From the human T2T-CHM13v2.0 reference genome, Homo sapiens, in the NCBI RefSeq assembly GCF_009914755.1, contig NC_060937.1: 64,000 bases of DNA, one strand, 5' to 3'. Of this stretch, positions 44,811 through 49,360 are shown in pieces. Within the stretch, counting starts at the first letter, position 1. Every line of letters begins with the position of its first letter. The notes under the pieces are model-generated. The model was not told the DNA's origin. It made no database searches and saw nothing but the letters and a program-made list of their open reading frames with translations. Position numbers and translations under genes: made by a program.

Positions 44811-47431
44811 GGGTAGTCATTGTTGGGCCTCCAAGTCCTATTCCCTTAAAATGGAAGACGCAAAATCCTGTTTGGGTTGAGCAGTGGTTGCTTTCTCAGG
44901 AAAAATTGGGGGCCTTACAGGAATTAGTCAAAGAGCAATTAAACAAATGAAACATTGAGCCAACATTTTCTCCATGGAATTCGCCAATGTTTGTAATAAA
45001 GAAAAAAGCTGGCAGATGGGACATGCTAAGTGACTTACAAGTGGTCAATGCAGTCATCCAGCTGATGGGGGCCCTGCAGCTGGGGCTTCCTTCCCCCACC
45101 ATGATTCCTAGAGACTGGCCATTAATAATTATAGATGTGAAGGACTGCTTTTGAAGTATTCCTCTAGCAGAGTCTGATTTTGAGAAATTTGCTTTTACTA
45201 TTCCTGCCGTGAACAACAAGGAACCAGTAGCCAGATATCATTGGAAAGTCCTGACACAGGGCATGTTGAATAGTCCTACTATTTGTCAAACTTTTGTGGG
45301 GAAGGCTATTCAACCTGTGAGAGATCAGTTTCCCAATTCGTATATCATTCATTATATGGATGACATATTGTGTGCGGCCGAAAATCGAGACCGACTTATC
45401 CAGTGTTATTCATATTTACAGGAGGTGGTAGCCAATGCTGGGTTGCTCATAGCACCAGATAAAATTCAAATGGCCACTCATTTCCAATATTGGAGAATGC
45501 AGGTTCAGGAAAGGGCAATTAAACCCCAAAAGGTTCAAATTCAAAAAGACTCTCTGAAAACTTTAAATGATTTTCAAAAATTATTAGGGGATATCAATTG
45601 GATTCAACCTACTTTGGGAATCCCTACCTATGCTATGTCTAATCTGTTCTCTATTTAAGAGGAGACCCTGCTCTCAATAGTAAATGAGAACTGACTCCTG
45701 AAGCTGCCAAAGAATTACAAATGATTGAAGAAAAAAATACAACAGGCCCAGGTTAATAGAATAGACTCAAGTTTACCATTACAGTTCATTGTGTTCCCTA
45801 CTCTCCATTCTCCTACAGGGGTTATAATTCAGAGTGAAGACTTAGTTGAATGGTCTTTTCTGCCTCACAATACTGTTAGAACACTCACAGTATACTTGGA
45901 TCAGATGGCAATCTTGATTGGGCAAGCTCACCTTAGAGTTGTTAAACTTTGTGGCTCAGATCCAGATAAGATTATAGTTCCAAAGATTAAAAATCAGATT
46001 TGGCAAGCCTTTGTTAATTCGGTCGATTGGCAAATAAATTTAGCTGGATTCATTGGAGTTATTGACAATCATTATTCAAAAAACAAACTTTTTCAGTTTT
46101 TAAAGCTAACAACATGGGTCCTTCCAAAAATTACCCCTAGTGCTCCATTGGAAGGAGCAGTTAACTGTGTTTACAGATGGATCTAGCAATGGAAAAGCAG
46201 CTTATGTAGGACTCAAAAACAGAATTATTCACACTGACTTTCAATCAGCACAGAGGGCTGAATTAGAGGCAGTTATAGCTGTGTTAGAAGACTTTAAGCA
46301 ACCTGTAAAGATTGTCTCTGATTCAGCTTATGTTGTTCAAGCCACTCAATATATAGAAACTACACTCATTAAATATCTTGTGGATGAACAACTCTATCAG
46401 CTGTTTTCTTCTTTACAAAAGGCAGTGCATGATCGCTGTTTTCCTTTCTATATTATGCACATTCAAGCAAACACTAATCTTCCTGGGCCCTTGTAAGGGA
46501 TAACGATCAAGCTGATTTACTAGTTTCCACTATGCTTACTAATGCCCAAGATTTTCACTCCCGAACACATGTTAATGCAGCAGGACTTAAACAAAAATAC
46601 CAGATTACTTGGAGACAGGCAAAGGACATTTTGCAACATTGCCTTCAGTGCCAGGTACTACAACTGCCACATGAAGGGACTGGTGTTAACCCATGGGGAT
46701 TAACCCACAATATGTTGTGGCAAATGGACATAACCTACGTACCTTCATTCAGGAAACTTTCATACGTCCATGTTACTATAGATACCTTTTCTCATTTTGT
46801 ATTGGCAACTTGCCAAACAGGTTAGGTGGTTGCTCATATTAAAAGACATTTACTTTCCTGTTTCGCTGCCATGGGCATCCCACAAAAGATTAAAACAGAC
46901 AATGGCCCAGGCTACTGCAGTAAATCTTTACAAGTGTTCCTTCAACAATGGCACATTGAGCACAGTACTGGAATACCCTATAATTCTCAAGGCCAAGCCA
47001 TTGTTGAACAGGCTAATCGAACCCTAAAATCTCAATTACAAAAACAAAAGACAGAGGGGGGAACCAGAGAATACTCTACTCCCCATATGCAGATACAATT
47101 GGCTCTTATCACTTTAAATTTTTTGAATTTATCTAGAGATCAGGTTACAACGGCAGCAAAGCAGCATTTGACAGGGCAAAAAATAAATTCTCATGAGGGA
47201 AAACATGTGTGGTGGAAGGATGTCAGAACCAAAACCTGGGAAAAAGGCAAAATCATTACAAGGGGTCAAGGGTTTGCTTGTATCTCACCAGGAGAGAATC
47301 AGCTTCCTGTCTGGGTACCCACAAGACATCTTAAGCTGTGCCATGAGCCAGAATCCAAGGAAGAGGAAAAGACCTCGGAACATCCCTGCACCCCCAGTTC
47401 GTCAGATGGCTCAGAAGAACGTCTCTGTTGA
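44790..47431 (+). pseudogene. pol: HERV-K pol (RT, RNase H, integrase), disrupted
   Basis: [17 protein letters not shown] at 45353; RNase H TDGSSNG; integrase HHCC and WQMD/KTDNG/IVE; stops and frameshifts. Confidence 0.95.
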
Positions 47432-49360
47432 GCAGATGGAAACTGTAAAGCTCGCCAAGCAACTCCACCGACCTGGGGGCAGATGAAGAGAGTAGCTCCC
47501 ATTGCAGAAGAGAACCTGAGGTCTCAGAACAAGCCACTGACCATCAGTAATCTAATGGTAGCTATGATGGCAGTAATCTCCCTGGCAGTGAGTCTCGCCG
47601 TAGCTGAGACAGATCAAAATTACACTTATTGGCCGTACGTTCCATTCCCACCACTGATTAGGCCTGTTACATGGTTAGACTCCCCGGTGGAGGTTTATGT
47701 TAATGATAGTGTCTGGATGCCTGGACCAACAGATAAACGAGGTCCTACTCATCCAGAGGAGGAAGGAATGTTAATGAATGTTTCCATTGGTTATCACTTT
47801 CCTCCCATCTGCCTAGGGCTGGCAGCAGGATGTTTAAATTATAATAAACAAAGTTGAATGGTTTATGTCCCTGCACATAATGGATCAAAAGCCTCTATTC
47901 ATGCAATCAGTGGAAGAACATTTCAATCTTGGGACACTACAAAATACCTTGAGCACAGCTATGTTATGACACATCACCAGATTAATAAATTTAAACCTAA
48001 TAAAAAGCCCTGCCTTAGGCAGGCCACTAAATTGTCTGGAAAGCTAGAGGGGCTAACCTGGGAAGATTGTATTGCAAACAGCGCTGTTGTACTGCAAAAT
48101 AATTCCTATGGAATCATCATTGATTGGGCCCCTAGGGGACGCTTTGCAGTAAATTGTACTGGACAGCATGAAGATTGCAGAGAGATTCCTTTTGCAAATG
48201 ACTACCCAGATAATGCACCAAAATTATATAGAAGAATTGAAACAAATTACTCTATTAAGTGGGAGGAGAACGGTATGGCTCTTCCAAGACCGAAAATGAT
48301 TGATCCAATTATAAGTCCAGAACATCCAGAACTATGGAAATCAATGATGGCTCAAACCCCAATTCGGATTTGGAAAGGAGAAAATAAAACAGAAACCCAT
48401 AGTAAAAAACTTCGATTTGTTGTAGCCATGACCTCTAATCGGACAGTCCCATTGCAGAGTTGTGTTAAACCTCCTTTTAGGTTGGCAGTGGAAAAAATTA
48501 ATATCCTACCTGACTCTCAAACCATATCATGCCTCAATGGTCATCTTTTTTACCTGCATTAATTCTACCTTTAATAAAGATAATAACATTTTACTGGTTA
48601 AGTCCTGAGAAGGAATTTGGATACCTGTTTCCCTCAATAGACCTTGGGAGGCCTCTCCTTCCATACATATTATCACTGAAGTACTAAAAGGAATACTTAA
48701 TAGATCAAAGAGATTCATATTTACTTTAATAGCTGTGATCCTGGGCCTTATAGCTGTTACAGCTACTGCTGCTGCTGCTGTTGCTTTGCACTCTTCTATT
48801 CAAACTGCAGGCTTTGTGGATAGTTGGCAGAAAAATTCTTCTAAGCTTTGGAATTCCCAAAGCCAAATAGATCAAAAATTGGCAAATCAAATTAATGATC
48901 TCTGTCAAACAGTAATTTGGATGGGAGATTGGATTATGAATTTGGAGCATAGAATTCAAATGCAATGTGATTGGAATACTTCTGATTTTTGTATTACTCA
49001 TAGCTCCTATAATGCCACTGAGCACCATTGGGCGATGATTAGACATCACCTGCAAGGAAAAGAAGATAATTTAACATTAGATATTGCTAAACTGAAGAAA
49101 ACAAGTTTTTGAGGCATCTCAGGCTCATCTCACCCTGTTGCCTGGAGCTGACATTCTTGCTGGAGCCGCTGATGGCCTTTCTAATACCAATCCTTTAAAG
49201 TGGAGTAAAACCATAGGTAGATCAACAATTGCAAATTTTATTTTGGTTTGTGTCTGTTTATGCTGTTTGTTTTTAGTCTACAAATGCGGACAGCGCCTTG
49301 GGAGAGAAGCCAGATACCGTGAACGAGCCATGGCATAGCAATGGTGGTTATTAATTTAAA
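47343..49360 (+). pseudogene. env: HERV-K env (signal peptide, SU, TM), disrupted
   Basis: [22 protein letters not shown] cleavage site at 48702-48713; fusion peptide [36 protein letters not shown]. Confidence 0.92.

What the first reader, a model, noticed from the sequence alone, without database searches (positions are those of the whole stretch)
47290..49354. Rec-like spliced accessory gene in an HML-9/K14C-like provirus
Seen: a leader donor TGG|GTAAGT (42516), an env acceptor TATCTCACCAG| (47291) and an ATG at 47343 encoding [13 protein letters not shown]. Then [14 protein letters not shown], a phase-0 donor GCA|GTGAGT (47588) and an acceptor TGTTTGTTTTTAG| (49276) opening STNADSALGEKPDTVNEPWHSNGGY* (stop 49352-49354). 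Known: HML-2 rec joins the env leader (RRRRHRNR basic motif, TWAQLKKLTQLA NES) in phase 0 to a short alternative-frame exon SAGVPNSSEETATIENGP* at the same positions. Inference: restoring one missing nucleotide near 47445 gives a ~107-aa (82+25) Rev/Rec-type RNA export protein. I do not recall Rec being described for this group. The leader could instead act unspliced, like MMTV Rem-SP or JSRV Rej.
Basis: partly seen in the sequence, partly recalled or inferred. Interest (0 to 1): 0.75.

Follow-up and report, generated by a model that had tools for sequence, protein, structure and literature searches.

The report
Fossil rec-type gene in HML-9 provirus
The env gene of a dead HERV-K(HML-9) provirus on chromosome 13 still carries, in broken form, the same splice sites and leader motifs that HERV-K(HML-2) uses to make its RNA-export protein Rec, so this gene layout probably predates the split of these virus groups, although nothing shows it is used today.

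Summary
The element is the HML-9 (HERVK14C) provirus 13q31.1 of Jia 2022.

- **Homology to rec.** The donor at 47588 and the acceptor at 49276 are exact positional homologues of the HML-2 rec donor and acceptor, checked on real HML-2 loci and on a published acceptor motif.
- **Spread in the family.** GT is kept in 19 of 19 family copies and the acceptor AG in 17 of 20. Three other HML-like groups also have both sites. Two further groups read ATGAGT at the donor place.
- **Leader motifs.** The basic patch and the NES-like motif lie in register with HML-2.
- **This copy is dead.** It has a frame switch in the leader and further env breaks, and its 5' LTR lacks U3. Its only annotated transcript is antisense. 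A copy-specific 2-nt insertion explains the 25-codon second exon; the others end after 18 codons, as in HML-2.
- **What is missing.** No RNA, response-element or selection evidence was found.

Verdict: a probable ancestral Rec-type gene, a new member of a known kind. It was not found described for HML-9, but there are precedents in HML10 and SERV-K/MER11. Interest is moderate to low.

The parts
41676..42180 (.). Upstream copy (A1) of a ~505-bp piece of an old interspersed host repeat, duplicated on both sides of the insert
   Evidence: About 95% identical to 49973-50475. Other genomic copies of the repeat run through both outer edges with a single A.
42181..42389 (+). Truncated 5' LTR14C: only the last ~210 bp (R-U5-like, with AATAAA at 42230) remain; U3 is absent
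   Evidence: It matches 49776-49973 of the 3' LTR at 86%. Jia 2022 lists the 5' LTR as 35.78% complete.
42392..42409 (+). Primer-binding site of the tRNA-Lys type, directly after the LTR end
   Evidence: Read and kept in the family copies. The tRNA assignment is recalled, not tested.
42513..42521 (+). Leader splice donor TGG|GTAAGT
   Evidence: GT is present in 17 of 20 copies and GTAAGT in 14 of 20. It ranks 4th of 291 GT sites.
47272..47291 (+). Env/rec first acceptor (pyrimidine tract plus AG at 47290-47291)
   Evidence: AG is present in 18 of 19 copies.
47289..47472 (-). Exon of the predicted antisense lncRNA LOC105370290; its donor is the complement of the env acceptor tract
   Evidence: Hub gene table. 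On the minus strand, AG precedes 47472 and GT follows 47289 (read).
47343..47587 (+). Env leader, i.e. the first coding exon of the rec-type gene: basic patch at codons 6-13, NES-like motif, hydrophobic end. Broken by a frame switch within 47432-47486
   Evidence: Pfam PF15695 scores 25 bits, E 2e-5, on the downstream frame. Colinear with the HML-2 leader.
47585..47593 (+). Second donor GCA|GTGAGT, phase 0, homologous to the HML-2 rec donor
   Evidence: GT in 19 of 19 copies and GTRAGT in 18 of 19. Cross-group alignment; HML-2 locus L081.
47588..49276 (+). Putative rec intron, i.e. the body of env (SU and most of TM). It is itself broken: an in-frame stop at 47855-47857, a stop at 48560-48562, and later changes of frame
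   Evidence: ORF table. Pfam HERV-K_env_2 and GP41 hits.
49258..49276 (+). Second acceptor, a T-rich tract plus TTTTTAG|, homologous to HML-2 SA2
   Evidence: AG in 17 of 20 HML-9 copies and 9 of 9 more distant copies. HML-2 copy L060. SA2 motif in Schmitt 2015.
49277..49354 (+). Second coding exon in the +1 frame relative to env: 25 codons here, lengthened by a copy-specific 2-nt insertion near 49333
49375..49387 (+). Polypurine tract
49389..49972 (+). Complete 3' LTR14C (AATAAA at 49811)
   Evidence: The reference layout in Jia 2022 puts the env end next to the LTR start.
49973..50475 (.). Downstream copy (A2) of the duplicated host repeat piece

Best explanation
The stretch 47290-49354 is the env gene of the defective HML-9 (HERVK14C) provirus at 13q31.1. 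It preserves, as a fossil, the gene layout of HERV-K(HML-2) rec.

In the once-active virus a doubly spliced mRNA most likely formed in two steps: leader donor to env acceptor, then the donor at the end of the Env leader to the acceptor in the TM tail. This joined about 82 codons of the Env leader in phase 0 to about 18 codons in the +1 frame of the env end. The leader carries an arginine/lysine patch and a leucine-type export-signal-like motif. The product would have been a protein of about 100 residues that shuttles and exports unspliced viral RNA, as Rec does.

Shown here: the sites, their phase, their positional homology to HML-2, and their presence across the family and in related groups.

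Inferred: that the sites were spliced, and that the protein exported RNA.

At this locus the gene is dead and was probably never driven by its own LTR.
For: Identity of the element:
- The provirus is listed as HML-9 13q31.1, with its 5' LTR 35.78% complete.
- The Pfam order is gag, dUTPase, protease, G-patch, RT, RNase H, integrase, env.

Homology to rec:
- The HML-2 leader (L081) and HML-9 leaders align without gaps from the basic patch through the NES region to V|VSLP, and the donor starts a codon in both.
- The donor hexamer G|GTRAGT lies at the same column in HML-9, in the 7:151.7 copy, in four type II HML10 loci, in 8:18.18 and in HML-2.
- The acceptor context TTAG|TCT, with a second AG 7 nt downstream in most copies, matches the canonical HML-2 SA2 motif and its alternative acceptor 7 nt downstream, as printed in Schmitt 2015 (passages seen).
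- It also matches HML-2 copy L060, whose +1 frame gives 18 codons and then TGA.
- Williams 2024 (passages seen) gives 18 residues for the second exon of Rec.

Spread in the family:
- Env acceptor AG in 18 of 19 copies, ATG in 11 of 19, donor GT in 19 of 19.
- Acceptor AG in 17 of 20, plus 9 of 9 more distant copies.
- An 18-codon second exon in 10 of 20 HML-9 copies and 7 of 9 distant copies.
- Leader donor GT in 17 of 20.
- Four of 19 copies keep an open leader of 81-82 codons from ATG to the donor.
- Three of the 16 copies seen at both exons keep ATG, an open leader in phase, donor GT, acceptor AG and the 18-codon exon.

The donor is not simply forced by Env. Two other HML-like groups have ATGAGT (Met-Ser) at that place in 6 of 7 loci.

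Use of the acceptor place in practice: in SERV-K/MER11, RNA-seq reads join the rec donor to an acceptor at the matching site inside HML-8-derived env.
Against: - No RNA evidence for the junction. The only annotated transcript here is antisense (hub table).
- Among the scored genome matches, none ended at the donor (40 scored of 163 candidates) and none began at the acceptor (41 matches listed, 40 of 99 candidates scored). So no processed rec-like copy was seen.
- Within the family the splice positions differ between copies about as often as the background: acceptor AG 0.134 against 0.137, and env acceptor 0.059 against 0.102. The second donor GT is 0.000, but that is only two sites.
- The number of open leaders (4 of 19) equals a crude neutral expectation of about 4.5, taken from the indel, stop and ATG losses.
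- Env coding explains part of the signal. Any Val codon gives GT, the T-rich tract encodes the membrane anchor, and the +1 frame has almost no way to acquire a stop given the Arg/Gly/Glu-rich Env tail (my reasoning).
- The LTR U3-R folds with z = -2.74 here, but with z from +0.47 to -2.57 in 8 other copies. There is no clear response element.
- The SERV-K/MER11 sRec is spliced yet did not export RNA.
- The Pfam 'HERV-K_REC' model runs through the donor to NYTYWA, so it describes the unspliced Env leader and cannot tell Rec from the signal peptide.
Confidence: 0.58

Rival explanations
1. The splice-like sites persist only because of Env coding: Val-Ser at the end of the signal peptide and Leu-Val in a T-rich membrane anchor. 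HML-9 exported its RNA through the unspliced Env signal peptide, like MMTV Rem-SP or JSRV Rej, or through a constitutive transport element.
For: GT is forced by any Val codon. The tract encodes the hydrophobic anchor, and the +1 frame is nearly stop-proof given the Env tail (reasoning). There is no excess conservation within the family. The LTR fold is inconclusive. A related virus uses a CTE. The MMTV SP is functional (abstract of PMC8725593, seen in the listing).
Against: The full hexamer RAGT after GT needs 1 of 12 synonymous Val-Ser codings, yet it is kept in five groups. The acceptor needs a Leu codon ending in A (2 of 6), yet it is kept in all 29 non-Y-variant and distant contexts except 3 decayed copies. 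In HML-2 the signal peptide alone lacks export activity (Ruggieri 2009, abstract and passages). The matching acceptor place is used in SERV-K/MER11.
Confidence: 0.24
2. The spliced mRNA existed, but its product was not an RNA export factor. It may have had another role, or none, as proposed for SERV-K/MER11 sRec.
For: sRec is made from a rec-like splice form but did not promote export with any element tested. No consistent structured element was found in LTR14C U3-R.
Against: The basic patch and the NES-like motif lie in register with the HML-2 Rec motifs. sRec differs because its virus acquired a CTE.
Confidence: 0.12
3. Chance: unrelated GT/AG sites and a short open frame in a decayed provirus.
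For: A provirus of this size holds 291 GT and 494 AG sites. An 18- to 25-codon open frame is common.
Against: The sites fall on exactly the same alignment columns as the HML-2 rec sites, with the same phase and, in the other copies, the same stop place.
Confidence: 0.03
4. A host-domesticated, still functional Rec-like gene at this locus.
For: None, beyond the presence of the motifs.
Against: A frame switch in the leader, a 2-nt insertion, several further env breaks, no 5' U3, only an antisense annotation, and a family-wide decay pattern that fits neutrality.
Confidence: 0.01

Closest known systems
HERV-K(HML-2) Rec (cORF), from doubly spliced env-derived mRNA
   Same: The first coding exon is the Env leader, with a basic patch and an NES-like motif in register. 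The donor is at the same codon boundary before VSLP, and the acceptor is at the same TTAG|TCT place in the TM tail. The second exon is in the +1 frame, with 18 codons in most family copies.
   Different: The leaders are only distantly alike: Pfam scores are 36-51 bits for HML-9 copies against 140-190 for HML-2. No RNA, protein or RcRE evidence exists for HML-9. This copy is broken, and its second exon is 25 codons.
'Rec domain' of type II HML10 proviruses (Grandi 2017, PMC5667498)
   Same: It rests on the same Env-leader homology outside HML-2. The HML10 type II loci also show the donor and acceptor in my alignments.
   Different: In the passages I saw, that report is a domain and ORF analysis. 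It states that HML10 lacks the NLS part, and I saw no splice-site analysis. HML-9 leaders keep the basic patch.
SERV-K/MER11 sRec (Williams 2024, PMC11379458)
   Same: A rec-like splice form that uses the rec donor and an acceptor at the matching place in non-HML-2 (HML-8-derived) env sequence.
   Different: It is shown by RNA-seq. Its second exon is 62 residues, it had no export activity, and the virus uses a CTE.
MMTV Rem / SP p14 and JSRV Rej
   Same: A long betaretroviral Env signal peptide carrying nuclear-targeting and export functions (partly recalled).
   Different: Rem continues in the env frame after splicing, and Rej needs no second splice (recalled). Here the second exon is in another frame, as in Rec.

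Membership tests
HERV-K(HML-9)/HERVK14C provirus | Listed locus with LTR14C ends and betaretroviral gene order including dUTPase and G-patch | tested here: met
   Jia 2022 Table 1 lists 13q31.1, chr13 + strand. Pfam domains in order. About 16 further copies in the genome at 81-93% identity.
Rec-type gene (HML-2 Rec) | First coding exon is the Env leader, homologous to the Rec/Env leader (Pfam PF15695) | tested here: met
   Family copies score 36-51 bits against a cut-off of 27.5. This copy scores 25 bits, below the cut-off, because of the frame break. Caveat: the model spans the unspliced leader.
Rec-type gene (HML-2 Rec) | Arginine-rich nuclear-localisation / RNA-binding patch near the N-terminus | tested here: met
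   The basic patch at codons 6-13 aligns with the HML-2 patch. Its function was not tested.
Rec-type gene (HML-2 Rec) | Leucine-type nuclear export signal | tested here: inconclusive
   The motif lies in register with the HML-2 NES region. This copy has substitutions within it compared with the other copies. Activity cannot be judged from sequence.
Rec-type gene (HML-2 Rec) | Second donor at the end of the leader, in phase 0 | tested here: met
Rec-type gene (HML-2 Rec) | [quoted passage not shown] | tested here: met
Rec-type gene (HML-2 Rec) | Short second exon in an alternative frame of the env end (18 residues in HML-2) | tested here: met
   18 codons in 10 of 20 HML-9 copies. This copy has 25 because of a 2-nt insertion.
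Rec-type gene (HML-2 Rec) | Doubly spliced mRNA actually made | not testable with these tools
   No RNA data are held. No processed copy was seen among the scored hits.
Rec-type gene (HML-2 Rec) | Structured response element in the LTR U3-R | tested here: inconclusive
   z = -2.74 here; z from +0.47 to -2.57 in 8 other copies.
Rec-type gene (HML-2 Rec) | CRM1-dependent export of unspliced viral RNA | not testable with these tools
   Needs a bench assay.
MMTV Rem | C-terminal part continues in the env reading frame after the splice | tested here: not met
   The second exon is in the +1 frame relative to env. The definition of the Rem layout is recalled.

The most novel reading that the evidence does not exclude
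The rec gene layout (leader donor in phase 0, acceptor in the TM tail, 18-codon alternative-frame exon) is not an HML-2 invention. It was already present in the common ancestor of HML-2, HML-9, type II HML10 and at least two further HML-like lineages. Other HML-like groups, which read ATGAGT at the donor place, either lost it or never had it. Rec-type export would then be an old, repeatedly kept or lost trait of primate betaretroviruses.
Probability: 0.5. Interest if true: 0.5.

Novelty: new member of a known kind. Interest (0 to 1): 0.35.

Why it matters
Rec is usually presented as a peculiarity of HML-2 type 2 proviruses. One HML10 paper says so explicitly.

If the same splice layout is present across HML-9 and related groups, three things follow:
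- The origin of complex regulation in betaretroviruses moves back to before these groups split.
- It gives a concrete junction to look for in RNA-seq of cells where HERVK14C is de-repressed.
- It warns that the 'Rec domain' label of Pfam/CDD marks only the Env leader.

For this locus itself nothing functional follows. It is a dead copy.

Tried and rejected
1. **Response element.** I folded the LTR14C U3-R as a possible Rec-response element. It gave z = -2.74 here, but the signal was not consistent in 8 other copies. Inconclusive.
2. **Selection within the family.** Pairwise mismatch at the splice positions is near background. The count of open leaders fits neutral decay. Dead copies cannot show selection, so this neither supports nor refutes past function.
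3. **Processed (retrotransposed) rec-like copies.** None of the scored matches ended at the donor or began at the acceptor. Only about 40 of 163 and of 99 candidates were scored.
4. **Pfam 'HERV-K_REC' as proof of Rec.** Rejected, because the model covers the unspliced leader up to NYTYWA.
5. **Literature.** Flockerzi 2005 (PMC548434), the first description of HERV-K14CI, is not held and may bear on novelty. I did not open the supplements of the HML-9 papers. The KAP1/HERVK14C paper has nothing on splicing or Rec, and the NMD preprint mentions only the family name.
7. **Group assignment.** I could not assign the two ATGAGT groups, the 7:151.7 copy or the 8:18.18 copy to named HML groups, because no repeat library is at hand.
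8. **Splice-site ranks** use position weights recalled from memory. They are for ranking only.
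Full report
**What is there.** The window is T2T chr13:84,072,001-84,136,000. The element between about 42181 and 49972 is the HML-9 (HERVK14C) provirus 13q31.1 of Jia et al. 2022. Their table, seen as passages, lists it on chr13, + strand, at 7,795 bp, with a 5' LTR 35.78% complete and pro 52.2% complete. Pfam finds Gag p24, dUTPase, protease, G-patch, RT, RNase H, integrase, HERV-K_env_2 and GP41 in order on the + strand. 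A Lys-type primer-binding site follows the 5' LTR remnant (the tRNA assignment is recalled). A polypurine tract and a complete 584-bp LTR close the element.

**The observation.**
- Leader donor TGG|GTAAGT at 42516.
- Env acceptor AG at 47290-47291.
- ATG at 47343, followed by a Lys/Arg patch.
- Phase-0 donor GCA|GTGAGT at 47588.
- Acceptor TTTTTAG| at 49276.
- A 25-codon frame ending at 49352-49354.

The ATG frame stops at 47484-47486. The frame that reaches the donor opens at 47432, so one frame switch lies within 47432-47486. According to Jia 2022, the reference env CDS spans 5975-8020 with the 3' LTR starting at 8022. That places the reference env start at the same ATG, give or take the net indels.

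**Family comparison.** The window's own assembly holds about 16 further HML-9 copies at 81-93% identity, plus more distant relatives. I aligned short stretches copy by copy.

| Feature | Count |
|---|---|
| Env acceptor AG | 18 of 19 |
| ATG | 11 of 19 |
| Second donor GT | 19 of 19 |
| Second donor GTRAGT | 18 of 19 |
| Second acceptor AG, HML-9 copies | 17 of 20 |
| Second acceptor AG, more distant copies | 9 of 9 |
| Leader donor GT | 17 of 20 |
| Leader donor GTAAGT | 14 of 20 |

From ATG to donor, 11 of 19 copies have 246 nt, and this copy has 245. Four of 19 copies keep an open leader of 81-82 codons. This copy alone has 2 extra bases near 49333. In 10 of the 20 HML-9 copies compared, this one not among them, and in 7 of 9 distant copies, the +1 frame after the acceptor ends after 18 codons. 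Three of the 16 HML-9 copies seen at both exons keep ATG, an open leader in phase, donor GT, acceptor AG and the 18-codon exon. One of those three has a weakened donor hexamer.

**Homology to HML-2 rec, tested on real sequence.**
- *Leader.* An HML-2 locus fetched from the same genome (L081) gives the leader with its basic patch, NES region and ...V|VSLP. The donor GTAAGT starts a codon. HML-9 leaders align to it without gaps up to that point.
- *Acceptor.* A second HML-2 copy (L060) shows the acceptor TTGTTAG|TCT and an 18-codon +1 frame ending in TGA.
- *Literature.* Schmitt et al. 2015 (passages seen) print the canonical SA2 context and describe an alternative acceptor 7 nt downstream. Most HML-9 copies have the same two AGs 7 nt apart. 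Williams et al. 2024 (passages seen) state that the first Rec exon derives from the Env signal peptide. They also state that the second begins near the Env C-terminus in another frame and has 18 residues.

**Beyond HML-9.** The donor hexamer sits at the same column in the 7:151.7 copy and in four loci at the chromosomal places Grandi 2017 gives for type II HML10. It is also there in 8:18.18 and in HML-2. Type I HML10 (the two C4-region copies, recognised by position from recall) lacks the leader region but keeps the acceptor. Two other HML-like groups, which I could not name, read ATGAGT at the donor place in 6 of 7 loci. Env can therefore do without the Val codon there. The donor is a lineage trait, not a universal by-product.

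**What the evidence does not show.**
- *No RNA evidence.* The only annotated transcript is the antisense lncRNA LOC105370290. Its exon 47289-47472 uses the complement of the env acceptor tract as its donor (hub table read).
- *No processed copy.* None appeared among the scored genome matches.
- *No sign of selection.* Within the family, splice positions vary about as much as the background. The number of open leaders fits neutral decay, as expected for dead copies.
- *Coding explains part of the signal.* Val gives GT, the T-rich tract encodes the membrane anchor, and the Arg/Gly/Glu-rich Env tail leaves the +1 frame almost no way to acquire a stop.
- *No clear response element.* The LTR U3-R fold is not consistently more stable than shuffles.
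- *The Pfam label is not specific.* The 'HERV-K_REC' model spans the unspliced leader through NYTYWA. A 'Rec domain' hit, whether here (25 bits), in family copies (36-51 bits) or in the literature, marks the Env leader only.
- *Splicing need not mean export.* A spliced rec-like product need not export RNA, as with sRec. Conversely, the HML-2 signal peptide alone lacks export activity (Ruggieri 2009, abstract and passages).

**State of this locus.** The leader has a frame switch. Env has an in-frame stop at 47855-47857, a further stop at 48560-48562 and two later frame changes. The 2-nt insertion ends the env frame early at 49336-49338 and lengthens the +1 frame. The 5' LTR keeps only its last ~210 bp and has no U3.

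**Most likely mechanism.** In the active HML-9 virus, a doubly spliced mRNA encoded a Rec-type protein of about 100 residues, with a basic patch for nuclear or nucleolar entry and RNA binding and a leucine-type export signal. It carried unspliced viral RNA out of the nucleus. The homology of the layout is shown. Splicing and export are inferred.

| Reading | My odds |
|---|---|
| Spliced Rec-type export factor | 0.58 |
| Sites kept only by Env coding; export by the signal peptide or a CTE | 0.24 |
| Spliced product, but no export function | 0.12 |
| Chance | 0.03 |
| Live host gene at this locus | 0.01 |

**Novelty.** I found no description of Rec for HML-9.
- Word searches inside the human and chimpanzee HML-9 papers found Rec only in the HML-2 background text or not at all.
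- Full-text searches for 'HML9'+'Rec', 'Rec-like'+'HERV-K' and 'HERVK14C'+'splic' found nothing on it.
- Flockerzi 2005 is not held, and I did not open the supplements.

Precedents exist in HML10 and SERV-K/MER11. I therefore rate it a new member of a known kind, of moderate to low interest.

Noticed in passing
window 41676-42180 and 49973-50475: The insert is flanked by two direct copies (about 95% identical) of a ~505-bp piece of an old interspersed host repeat. Other genomic copies of that repeat carry the piece once and run through both outer edges. The upstream copy is therefore in 'empty-site' context, and the insertion came with a ~0.5-kb target duplication. The 3' junction is a clean LTR end. 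The 5' junction is inside the LTR, with a few bases of microhomology. This suggests an aberrant, one-ended or repair-mediated insertion. The mechanism is not resolved.
   Followed up: partly
window 42181-42389 versus 49743-49972: The retained part of the 5' LTR starts about 37 nt downstream of a TATA-like TATACA in the intact 3' LTR (49706), close to where R should begin. It includes the AATAAA. The copy therefore never had its own U3 promoter at the 5' end.
   Followed up: partly
window 47289-47472, minus strand: The predicted antisense lncRNA LOC105370290 splices inside the provirus. The complement of the sense env acceptor tract reads as its donor (G|GTGAGA). Retroviral splice signals appear to be reused on the opposite strand.
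   Followed up: partly
Pfam PF15695 on L081 (HML-2, G000:C7:4702230-4702530): The Pfam family named HERV-K_REC matches 87 consecutive genomic codons that run through the rec donor into the rest of the Env signal peptide, up to NYTYWA. 'Rec domain' calls by Pfam or CDD therefore cannot distinguish Rec from the Env leader. The model gave 143 matches in this genome, most of them outside HML-2.
   Followed up: yes
L021, L025 (group A); L022, L026, L027, L028, L030 (group B): Two other HML-like groups keep the leader with its NES-like motif but read ATGAGT (Met-Ser) where HML-2 and HML-9 have the rec donor. One copy (L022) reads GTGTTT instead. The groups were not assigned to named HML families.
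   Followed up: partly
L043 (G000 chr1:246.54 Mb copy): An Alu-like insertion of about 300 bp sits between the env end and the polypurine tract of this HML-9 copy.
   Followed up: no
L044-L046, L048 (Y-chromosome copies): Y-linked HML-9 copies share changes, such as AGG in place of the env ATG. They also show expansions of the T run in front of the second acceptor, up to about 30 T in L048. This fits amplification by Y-chromosome duplications rather than independent integrations, so they are not independent data points in the counts.
   Followed up: no
window 42573-42581: A second strong donor-like site, AAG|GTAAGT, lies 16 nt into gag. It is kept as GTAAGT in most copies and ranks 2nd of 291 GT sites in the crude ranking.
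   Followed up: no
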